Shown one piece after another: positions 14,643 through 15,074 of a DNA stretch of 64,000 bases. Source of the DNA: a virus. The translations under genes and the position numbers were made by a program. The notes under the pieces were generated by a model, which searched no databases, was not told where the DNA came from, and saw only the letters and a list, made by a program, of their open reading frames with translations. The DNA lies in the IMG/VR virus record IMGVR_UViG_3300035665_000023, positions 9,018 through 73,017 of that record. One strand, given 5' to 3'. The first letter of the stretch is position 1. Every line of letters starts with the position of its first letter.

Positions 14643-15074
14643 TTAGACCCTGGCTCCCACACATAAGCTCAACGTCTCTTTGAGGCTTGTGTTCTCGACA
14701 CGTAGCCGCTCGCATTCCTTCTCAGCGGCGATACACTTTTCCTTCCACGAAGGCACAAGACGCTCTCGCGGCTTCTTATCCATTTCTATCGTCTCAGCGA
14801 TGAGGTCTCGGATGTTGTGCCTTGTCCAGTCATTGCGATCTGGATGCGCTTTTAAAACTGCGTGTAATGTCAAAAACGATGCAGCAGTATCGCTCAACTC
14901 CTCATCTAGGAAATCGAGTTCATTGGTTCCGTGCTCTGCGTGCCATGCCCGAAAGTCCTCGTCTTCGTAGCAATCCGACAGGAGAGCGACTCTGTCGAAT
15001 AGCAACTCGCTACCCTTCTTGCGCAACTCCCTCGCTTCGTGCATTTTGAGTTCCCATTTTTTTGCTCTTGCCAT
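14643..15074 (-). CDS. Unknown 143-aa helical protein between the Cas12f-like gene and the array
   Basis: GAGGAG RBS before MARAKKW; C-terminal coiled coil. Confidence 0.8.
   Translation of the reverse strand: MARAKKWELKMHEARELRKKGSELLFDRVALLSDCYEDEDFRAWHAEHGTNELDFLDEELSDTAASFLTLHAVLKAHPDRNDWTRHNIRDLIAETIEMDKKPRERLVPSWKEKCIAAEKECERLRVENTSLKETLSLCVGARV

What the first reader, a model, noticed from the sequence alone, without database searches (positions are those of the whole stretch)
14643..15074. Uncharacterised 143-aa protein between the dead Cas12f and its array: candidate effector or adaptor
Seen: strong GAGGAG RBS, ~60 bp from both the cas stop and the first repeat; helical, acidic core (DEDF...ELDFLDEELSD) and coiled-coil end. 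It does not look like Cas1/2/4/6, a sigma factor or TniQ. Inference: it may supply the activity the dead nuclease lacks, and its acidic core could bind the basic Cas tail.
Basis: inference. Interest (0 to 1): 0.72.

Follow-up and report, generated by a model that had tools for sequence, protein, structure and literature searches.

The report
Partner protein of phage dead-Cas12f
This small helical protein of unknown fold is a real gene that always travels with a non-cutting, phage-borne CRISPR protein (dead Cas12f) and its guide array, so it is most likely a required helper subunit; what it does is untested.

Summary
The ORF is real (14643-15074, minus strand, 143 aa, GAGGAG RBS). It is under strong purifying selection and folds confidently as an all-helical protein with a C-terminal zipper-like helix. 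It matches no family in Pfam, PHROGs, NCBIfam or PADLOC and no fold in the PDB or BFVD.

Linkage to the dead Cas12f holds in both directions. Searching from the ORF, 11 of 12 loci have the dCas12f gene directly upstream; the twelfth is too short to tell. Searching from dCas12f, 8 of 8 viral loci (5 distinct) carry the partner. In three of those loci (two distinct) the array sits between the two genes.

The two proteins co-diverge (Mantel r 0.91). Nothing suggests an enzyme, so "supplies the missing activity" is unsupported, while "adaptor or subunit" is plausible but unproven. The one complex prediction gave no verdict.

Context found here: spacers of this array and of its closest relative match integrase genes, a primase gene and the int-alpA leader of integrative elements in Pirellulaceae genomes. 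This points to RNA-guided silencing of rival mobile elements.

A sister clade fuses the same domain to HNH-HTH endonucleases.

This scan has already noted the same dCas12f-plus-partner module on other phage DNA. I found no paper describing the partner.

The parts
16415..16590 (-). tracr-like RNA upstream of the dCas12f gene. It has four stem-loops, an anti-repeat (about 16486-16501) and a terminator-like hairpin followed by a U tract.
   Evidence: RNAalifold on 7 loci gave 35 pairs, 19 of them with compensatory changes. The duplex with the repeat is -22.4 kcal/mol at 16501-16462. The N-terminal extension of the 463-aa ORF is not conserved as protein in L002/L003.
15137..16414 (-). Nuclease-dead, C-terminally truncated Cas12f-like gene (425 aa from the MAIRAARIE start).
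   Evidence: PADLOC Cas12f 1.9e-31 and Cas12u3 6e-30. PDB profile hits are 9i8y 7e-24, 7wju 3e-23 and 9n9c 'nuclease-deactivated Cas12f' 8e-9. YVRPA stands at RuvC-I and VYLQP at RuvC-II; there is no Zn finger or RuvC-III. 101 relatives were found.
15082..15087 (-). GAGGAG ribosome-binding site of the 143-aa gene, 7 nt before the ATG.
   Evidence: Read directly.
14643..15074 (-). The 143-aa partner gene. Layout: basic helix 6-37, acidic helical core 39-100, basic linker, zipper-like helix 110-142.
   Evidence: Linkage is shown.
14582..14642 (-). 61-nt leader between the partner's stop codon and the first repeat. It holds a hairpin that is also present, with changed letters, in L003, L005 and L010.
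   Evidence: Sequences printed, compared by eye only.
13830..14581 (-). CRISPR array of 11 repeats of 36 nt. The six repeats nearest the leader are intact (0-3 mismatches to the commonest copy) and the five distal ones are degenerate. Spacers are 32-38 nt.
14226..14257 (-). Spacer 5, which matches the int-alpA RNA motif just upstream of integrase genes in Pirellulaceae genomes.
14509..14545 (-). Spacer 1, a weak match (31 of 37 nt) inside an integrase gene (L027).

Best explanation
The 143-aa gene encodes a non-catalytic accessory subunit of a phage-borne module derived from type V-F. The module has four parts: a tracr-like RNA, a nuclease-dead truncated Cas12f, this protein and a CRISPR array.

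Shown:
- The gene is real and under purifying selection.
- It is inherited as one unit with dCas12f across relatives down to about 31% dCas12f identity, including loci where the gene order is rearranged.
- It has no enzyme-like feature.

Inferred:
- It binds the dCas12f-guide complex. [quoted passage not shown]
- It pairs through its C-terminal zipper-like helix.
- It makes RNA-guided DNA binding effective, either by stabilising the bound complex as a block or by bridging it to a host factor.

The module as a whole most likely silences integrase and replication genes of rival integrative elements in the Pirellulaceae host without cutting the chromosome.
For: Linkage, searching from the partner: 12 loci were found with patterns from the partner alone. 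In 11 of them a dCas12f relative lies directly upstream on the same strand. L006 has under 90 nt upstream and cannot be judged.

Linkage, searching from dCas12f: 8 IMG/VR loci were found with dCas12f alone. They form 5 distinct loci, because L015/L021, L017/L018 and L019/L020 score identically. All 8 have a partner-family gene downstream on the same strand, with E from 3e-47 to 4e-29.

Gene order varies. In L019/L020 and L022 the array lies between cas and the partner, so the pair is kept through rearrangement.

Co-divergence: Mantel r is 0.91 over 13 loci, and 0 of 5000 permutations reached it.

A weak proxy: 25 of the 45 partner clusters whose longest contig is at least 1900 nt share that exact contig length with a dCas12f cluster.

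Rarity elsewhere: 1 real hit in 401 Planctomycetota genomes, and that one sits next to dCas12f. There were 0 hits in 50,697 GenBank phage records.

Selection: pN 0.107 against pS 0.81.

Structure: pLDDT 95.6 and all-helical. The SWKER..AAEKECERLR stretch on the last helix is the best conserved part among near relatives.

Targets of the module:
- Window spacer 5 matches 13 of 401 Pirellulaceae genomes over its first 20-29 nt.
- The matched site is Rfam int-alpA in 6 of 7 fetched loci. It lies directly upstream of a tyrosine integrase in 4 of the 6 downstream ORFs tested.
- In the closest relative L002, spacers s2 and s5 hit integrase genes with 2 mismatches in 35. Spacer s4 hits a Prim-Pol/DUF3987 gene at 89% over 35 nt. 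Spacer s6 hits two integrases at 84-85%.

A weak hint of transcription: the only contig of a metatranscriptome run that lies on the 2.8-kb locus covers 14677-14921, inside this gene. DNA carry-over in that library is not excluded.
Against: No physical interaction has been shown.

Conserved linkage and co-divergence are also expected for any two genes of one mobile cassette.

A clade of relatives (9 HNH-HTH fusions plus 8 stand-alone proteins, SH-aLRT 98 on a quick tree) could not be checked for a dCas12f neighbour. The domain may therefore have a Cas-independent job.

Known dead TnpB/Cas12 repressors are reported to work without such a partner (TldR; I saw the search listing and abstract start only). 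A helper is thus not obviously needed for silencing.

In 7 of 8 matches inside genes the spacer is antisense to the gene. By my recollection of dCas12a work, RNA polymerase would then meet the PAM-distal side, which is the weaker orientation for a plain roadblock.
Confidence: 0.5

Rival explanations
1. It is an output adaptor rather than a stabiliser. The protein would recruit RNA polymerase, giving RNA-guided and often antisense transcription as in dCas12f-sigma-E. Alternatively it would recruit a nuclease or recombination enzyme to the dCas12f R-loop.
For: In the sigma-E system transcription starts 46 bp downstream of the TAM in the sense of the guide (PMC13472631, passages read). Here 7 of 8 intragenic matches are antisense to the target gene, which would drive antisense transcripts into integrase and primase genes. 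The same domain is fused to HNH-HTH endonucleases in a sister clade. The module sits inside the phage's recombination and replication operon, among exonuclease, RecT-like, ATPase, replication initiator and RuvC genes.
Against: There is no sigma-like region: Pfam found none and hhalign against an ECF sigma gave probability 0.1%. Spacer 5 is sense and lies upstream of the integrase, which does not fit an antisense-only scheme. No nuclease or polymerase partner has been identified. The strand count is small: 4 strong and 4 weak matches.
Confidence: 0.15
2. It is a regulator of the locus. In this reading it is a dimeric nucleic-acid-binding protein (basic stretches plus a zipper) that controls transcription or processing of the array or of cas, not a subunit of the effector.
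For: The gene sits 61 nt from the first repeat, before a leader that holds a conserved hairpin. The N-terminal helix and the linker are basic. The PDB profile search found only bZIP and coiled-coil chains, with the best bZIP at E 0.009. Pfam bZIP_2 matched 9 and bZIP_1 matched 7 of 73 members, with best E-values of 7.5e-4 and 9.4e-4.
Against: No HTH, RHH or other DNA-binding family was found. In L019/L020 and L022 the gene lies after the far end of the array, away from the leader. The bZIP-type matches cover only the coiled coil.
Confidence: 0.12
3. It is an unrelated phage function that merely rides in the same cassette, for example a recombination or host-takeover factor.
For: The wider family includes an HNH-fusion clade of unknown context. 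The window's module lies among recombination genes.
Against: 19 of 19 testable loci keep the pair, while the other neighbours differ. Only orf108 in L001, the ATPase in L011 and the exonuclease in L012 are shared beyond the closest relatives L002/L003. The pair survives a change of gene order.
Confidence: 0.1
4. It is the missing catalytic effector.
For: Only its position next to a dead nuclease.
Against: It is small and all-helical, with no catalytic motif and no family or fold match.
Confidence: 0.03

Closest known systems
dCas12f-sigma-E RNA-guided transcription system of Flagellimonas taeanensis (PMC13472631; 10.1101/2025.06.10.658880; PDB 9n9c family)
   Same: The Cas12f is nuclease-dead and C-terminally truncated. 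It is encoded next to a dedicated partner gene that is strongly linked to it. In that system the partner's extra domain docks on the truncated RuvC domain. The dCas12f here matches 9n9c at 8e-9.
   Different: The partner here has no sigma domains and no detectable similarity to an ECF sigma. The loci here keep multi-spacer CRISPR arrays and a separate tracr-like RNA. They are phage-borne, and their targets are genes of mobile elements. That paper mentions a distinct CRISPR-linked dCas12f cluster as possible repressors. The passages I read name no partner and no phage. Its Extended Data figures and supplements were not visible to me.
TldR, the TnpB-like nuclease-dead repressors (10.1101/2023.11.30.569447; PMC13622181; search listing and abstract starts only)
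   Same: A dead TnpB/Cas12-fold protein is used for RNA-guided gene repression.
   Different: TldRs use a single omega-type guide and act on host flagellin or transport genes. They are not described with an obligate small partner.
Cas12k with TniQ in type V-K CRISPR-associated transposons (recalled; Cas12k inactivation is noted in PMC10691335)
   Same: A naturally inactive type V effector whose output depends on an adaptor protein.
   Different: No transposition genes are present here. The partner is not TniQ-like in Pfam or NCBIfam.
Cas12r-CRISPR of Thermus Lalka phages (bioRxiv 10.64898/2026.04.20.719267; abstract and passages)
   Same: A phage-encoded type V array whose spacers mostly target integrative elements of the host, expressed together with replication genes.
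   Different: Cas12r is an active RuvC nuclease that needs no tracrRNA. 'Accessory' occurs 0 times in its text. The system here is dead, and so could act on integrated elements without cutting the chromosome of a host that the phage may lysogenise.
ICP1 phage CRISPR-Cas against the PLE satellite of Vibrio cholerae (recalled, no call)
   Same: A phage uses its own CRISPR system against a chromosomal parasite of phages.
   Different: ICP1 carries a complete, cutting type I-F system.

Membership tests
Known Cas accessory or adaptation proteins (Cas1, Cas2, Cas4, Cas6, TniQ) | A match to the family's profile in Pfam, NCBIfam or PADLOC | tested here: not met
   There were 0 hits in NCBIfam and PADLOC. 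Pfam gave only two chance-level hits, at E 0.36 and 0.41.
dCas12f-associated sigma-E | Sigma-70 region 2 and region 4 domains | tested here: not met
   Pfam found no sigma family. hhalign of the family profile against an ECF sigma gave probability 0.1%.
dCas12f-associated sigma-E | Tight genetic linkage to a nuclease-dead Cas12f | tested here: met
   11 of 11 testable loci plus 8 of 8 loci.
dCas12f-associated sigma-E | Docking of a partner domain on the truncated RuvC domain | not testable with these tools
   The one complex job gave no verdict (reported only under Tried and rejected).
bZIP / leucine-zipper DNA binders | A basic DNA-contact region continuous with a heptad zipper, scoring above the family threshold | tested here: inconclusive
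   The PDB profile search gave C/EBP chains at E 0.009-0.03 over the last helix only. Pfam bZIP_2 matched 9 and bZIP_1 matched 7 of 73 members, with best E-values of 7.5e-4 and 9.4e-4. Helix 110-142 is predicted.
Type V-F Cas12f nuclease (for the neighbouring gene) | Sequence homology to Cas12f, plus a tracrRNA and a CRISPR array | tested here: met
Type V-F Cas12f nuclease (for the neighbouring gene) | An intact RuvC D-E-D triad and a Zn-finger/TNB insertion | tested here: not met
   Arg and Leu stand at the aligned Asp and Glu positions. The alignment to the PDB chains ends about 30 residues before a Cys-free tail. The same substitutions appear in the consensus of 58 relatives.
Anti-CRISPR-associated (Aca) or other HTH regulators | A helix-turn-helix or RHH DNA-binding domain | tested here: not met
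   No such family was found in Pfam, NCBIfam or PHROGs. Foldseek's best E was 3.8 against the PDB and 0.8 against BFVD.
Phage small terminase or lambda Gam-like helical dimers (considered because of the HNH fusions and the recombination context) | Profile or fold similarity | tested here: not met
   Pfam and PHROGs gave no hit. No such structure appeared among the Foldseek matches at E <= 10. The idea itself is recalled, not derived from a call.

The most novel reading that the evidence does not exclude
The helical domain is a general docking module that couples a site-specific DNA binder to a shared output machine. With dCas12f as the binder, it would make the phage module an RNA-guided recruiter. 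One version is promoter-independent, mostly antisense transcription into the integrase and primase genes of rival elements. Another is recruitment of a nuclease or recombinase in trans. In the sister clade the same module is fused directly to an HNH-HTH endonuclease. That would be a second, sigma-independent way in which nature has turned a dead Cas12f into a programmable effector.
Probability: 0.12. Interest if true: 0.9.

Novelty: new variant of a known kind. Interest (0 to 1): 0.7.

Why it matters
Only one natural dead-Cas12f system has a known partner, and there the partner (a sigma factor) decides what the RNA-guided binder does. Here a second partner, unrelated and of unknown fold, is fixed in a whole family of phage modules that keep working multi-guide arrays.

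Knowing what it does would explain how temperate phages act on resident mobile elements without cutting the chromosome they may live in. It could also provide a very small accessory part (143 aa next to a 425-aa effector) for programmable gene control.

The targets found here make the question testable with ordinary reporter assays. They are integrase genes, a primase gene and the int-alpA leader.

Tried and rejected
Complex prediction of dCas12f (58-row alignment) with the partner (73-row alignment) scored 0.00 in both runs and returned no verdict. It is evidence neither way.

Fold searches found nothing. The best PDB match had E 3.8 and the best BFVD match E 0.8.

The ESM Atlas gave no usable lead. 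The whole protein scored at most 0.88, against unnamed clusters. Residues 1-105 against named clusters gave nothing.

The search for longer, fused relatives of the near family found none, which is weak evidence.

Context of the HNH-fusion clade could not be obtained:
- IMG/VR scans with the fusion alignment and with P0329 found nothing.
- Cluster look-up gave only contig lengths.
- An equal contig length of 3213 for P0197 and the dCas12f cluster P0294 comes from different sources, so I treat it as coincidence.

The IMG/VR scan with partner patterns found nothing. This was a miss of the pattern method, because the dCas12f-based scan then found 8 loci that carry partner relatives.

Self-targeting is rejected. 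None of the 11 window spacers matches the 73-kb phage or loci L001-L012 at up to 8 mismatches. Of 57 spacers, only spacers shared between the L002 and L003 arrays matched other loci. The window holds no Rfam family at gathering score. The phage encodes no homologue of the targeted integrases.

The idea that the ORF is really the tracrRNA is rejected. The tracr-like RNA lies upstream of cas and the ORF evolves as protein.

Matches I discounted as probable chance, or as spanning a repeat:
- L036 (NTP transferase; 10 of its 25 nt are repeat).
- L037 (ECF sigma; half repeat).
- L042 (27 nt).
- L039.
- G085, a coiled-coil-only hit.

Window spacer 9 against a type I restriction R-subunit gene (6 mismatches in 38) is too weak to use.

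The promoter and terminator scan was uninformative.

In the sequencing runs, parts of the locus without RNA contigs say nothing.

The Extended Data and SI of PMC13472631 and PMC10691335 may list neighbours of CRISPR-linked dCas12f, and I could not see them.

The claim that the partner is not in print rests on searches, plus the passages read.

Full report
WHAT IS THERE

On the minus strand the window carries, in order:
- a structured RNA (about 16590-16415);
- a 425-aa Cas12f-like gene (16414-15137);
- the 143-aa ORF in question (15074-14643);
- a 61-nt leader;
- an array of 11 repeats of 36 nt (14581-13830).

The ORF has a GAGGAG site 7 nt before its ATG. It lies 62 nt after the cas stop codon and 61 nt before the first repeat. 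The assembly is a single 73,017-base virus record. The neighbours on the same strand are phage recombination and replication genes: an exonuclease, a RecT-like protein, an ATPase, a replication initiator and RuvC.

IS THE ORF A GENE?

Yes.
- It has 74 clusters of close relatives of about 145 aa.
- An exhaustive search found 240 representative clusters at E <= 1e-3.
- Against its closest relative, non-synonymous sites differ at 0.107 while synonymous sites are saturated at 0.81.
- AlphaFold2 with a 73-sequence alignment gives pLDDT 95.6 and pTM 0.71.

The model has a long basic helix (6-37), an acidic core of five short helices (39-100), a basic linker and a 33-residue terminal helix (110-142). 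In near relatives the best conserved stretch is SWKER..AAEKECERLR on that last helix. Across 73 diverse members, W7, R28, D38, L56, D62, P78, W83 and L124 are kept in 90% or more.

WHAT IS IT LIKE?

Nothing known.
- Pfam gave only two chance-level hits.
- PHROGs, NCBIfam and PADLOC gave none.
- A profile search of PDB sequences found only coiled-coil and bZIP chains over the last helix; the best hit had E 0.0015 and the best bZIP E 0.009.
- Foldseek found no fold: best E 3.8 in the PDB and 0.8 in BFVD.
- The ESM Atlas gave no lead.
- A profile comparison with an ECF sigma factor was null.

THE NEIGHBOUR IS A DEAD CAS12F

It matches Cas12f models (PADLOC 1.9e-31) and Cas12f structures (9i8y 7e-24, 7wju 3e-23). 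More weakly, it matches the deposited 'nuclease-deactivated Cas12f' 9n9c (8e-9).

In the printed alignments Arg stands at the RuvC-I Asp (YVRPA) and Leu at the RuvC-II Glu (VYLQP). Homology ends about 30 residues before a Cys-free, K/P-rich tail, so the Zn finger and RuvC-III are absent. Which residues in those chains are catalytic is established knowledge that I recall. The same substitutions stand in the consensus of 58 relatives down to 34% identity. The inactivation is therefore old and maintained.

The RNA upstream of cas is a good tracr candidate. It has 35 consensus pairs, 19 with compensatory changes across 7 loci. It also has an anti-repeat and a terminator-like hairpin.

LINKAGE

I tested linkage in both directions with searches that used only one of the two proteins.

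Starting from the partner, I found 12 loci: one Pirellulaceae MAG contig and 11 metagenome contigs. In 11 of them a dCas12f relative lies directly upstream on the same strand. L006 has too little upstream sequence to tell.

Starting from dCas12f, I found 8 IMG/VR loci, 5 of them distinct. All 8 have a partner-family gene downstream.

An array follows the partner within about 100 nt in 9 of the first 12 loci. Two of the 12 are too short to tell, and L012 has none within 2.1 kb. In L019/L020 and L022 the array lies between cas and the partner, so the pair survives rearrangement.

Distances between dCas12f proteins and between partner proteins correlate at r = 0.91 over 13 loci, with 0 of 5000 permutations as high.

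As a weak proxy, 25 of the 45 partner clusters with a contig of at least 1900 nt share their exact longest-contig length with a dCas12f cluster.

Outside this context the family is rare. There is 1 real hit in 401 Planctomycetota genomes, and it is the dCas12f locus itself. There are none in 50,697 GenBank phage records.

A SISTER CLADE WITH ANOTHER DNA BINDER

Nine relatives are fusions. An HNH_3-type endonuclease region with Zn ribbons and an HTH-like stretch is followed by the partner-like domain and a longer coiled coil.

On a quick tree (the careful search did not finish) these nine plus eight stand-alone proteins form one clade with SH-aLRT 98. The 16 members known to be Cas-linked are spread over the rest of the tree.

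I could not obtain the genomic context of this clade. It is the main open point, because it may show a Cas-independent role for the domain.

WHAT THE MODULE AIMS AT

No spacer matches the phage itself.

Against 401 Pirellulaceae genomes, window spacer 5 matches 13 genomes over its first 20-29 nt, including 29 of 29 in G613. The site is the Rfam int-alpA RNA motif in 6 of 7 fetched loci. It lies directly before a tyrosine integrase gene in 4 of the 6 downstream ORFs tested.

The array of the closest relative, L002, gave these matches:
- two spacers with 2 mismatches in 35 inside integrase genes;
- one spacer with 2 mismatches in 33 in a DUF1580 ORF;
- one spacer at 89% in a Prim-Pol/DUF3987 gene;
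- one spacer at 84-85% in two further integrases.

Window spacer 1 matches an integrase weakly (31 of 37 nt).

In 7 of 8 intragenic matches the spacer is antisense to the gene.

The phage has no homologue of these integrases.

In lake-water metagenomes that hold this phage, other contigs carry near-matches to spacers 2, 3 and 9. The 5' flanks of all matches are mostly T-rich: TTT, TTT, TTC, TTC, CTC, TTG, GCT, GGT and CGT. This fits a Cas12f-type PAM.

Related arrays share old spacers and differ at the leader end, as in L002 against L003 and in run X20. The arrays therefore turn over.

A 2026 preprint describes an active phage Cas12r array that likewise targets integrative elements. Its authors note that cutting integrated copies would be awkward for a temperate phage. 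A dead effector avoids that problem.

READING

The partner is not an enzyme by any test available. [quoted passage not shown] I give it 0.5.

Whether it stabilises a block or recruits an output such as RNA polymerase or a nuclease is open. The antisense bias and the HNH fusions keep the recruiter reading alive. I give it 0.15 as a rival, and 0.12 for its boldest form. A locus regulator (0.12), a hitch-hiking phage function (0.10) and a catalytic effector (0.03) are less likely.

The single complex prediction gave no verdict and is not used.

One metatranscriptome contig lies inside the gene. This is only a weak hint of expression.

NOVELTY

I found no paper that describes this partner. The Nature 2026 paper mentions a CRISPR-linked dCas12f cluster as possible repressors.

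Earlier notes of this scan describe the same kind of module on other phage DNA. I treat them as leads only.

I class the partner as a new variant of a known kind: a dedicated partner of a naturally dead type V effector.

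Noticed in passing
window 14226-14257 (spacer 5); L023, L025, L026, L028, L030, L031 at about 1492-1565: Spacer 5 matches the conserved core of the Rfam int-alpA RNA motif. In 4 loci the motif lies directly upstream of a tyrosine integrase gene. The match recurs in 13 of the 401 Pirellulaceae genomes sampled.
   Followed up: yes
L002:4330-4920 and L003:2670-3123; window 14407-14545 in run X20: Closely related arrays share older spacers but differ at the leader end, although no cas1 or cas2 was seen in the loci. This suggests ongoing spacer gain, perhaps through host adaptation proteins.
   Followed up: partly
Proteins P0163, P0183, P0194, P0197, P0201, P0202, P0213, P0150, P0216: These are fusions of an HNH_3-type endonuclease, Zn ribbons and an HTH-like stretch to the partner-like domain. 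Each fusion keeps a Met exactly where the stand-alone proteins start. Their genomic context is unknown.
   Followed up: partly
window 14582-14642 (minus strand); leaders of L003, L005, L010: A hairpin directly before the first repeat, and a CCTCTCGC-type box after the partner's stop codon, recur with changed letters in related leaders. I compared them by eye only.
   Followed up: no
window 16415-16452 (minus strand): Between the tracr terminator and the cas start codon there is a 10-nt copy of the repeat's 3' end (ACGATGCAAG), also nearly kept in L002. It may be a lone repeat-like element; its meaning is unknown.
   Followed up: no
window 15137-15230 (C-terminal tail of dCas12f): A K/P-rich linker followed by a GVRGVRK-like motif is conserved in near relatives but replaced in distant ones (L012, L015-L022).
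   Followed up: partly
window 13940-13977, 14365-14400, 14437-14472 (spacers 9, 3, 2): In the lake-water runs X4 and X20, other contigs of 1.1-5.9 kb carry near-identical protospacers (1-2 differences). The 5' flanks are TTT for spacers 2 and 9. What these contigs encode could not be read.
   Followed up: partly
window 14677-14921: The only contig of a metatranscriptome run (X23) that lies on the 2.8-kb locus falls inside the 143-aa gene. Its depth is 2.9 and DNA carry-over is not excluded.
   Followed up: no
L024 (G495:C18), hit at 1507-1544: Window spacer 9 matches a type I restriction R-subunit gene weakly (32 of 38 nt). The match is too weak to count as targeting of a host defence gene.
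   Followed up: partly
window 13406-13984 (minus strand): The 192-aa ORF listed here overlaps the degenerate distal repeats. The real gene probably starts further in, and its relative in L002 aligns from residue 34.
   Followed up: no
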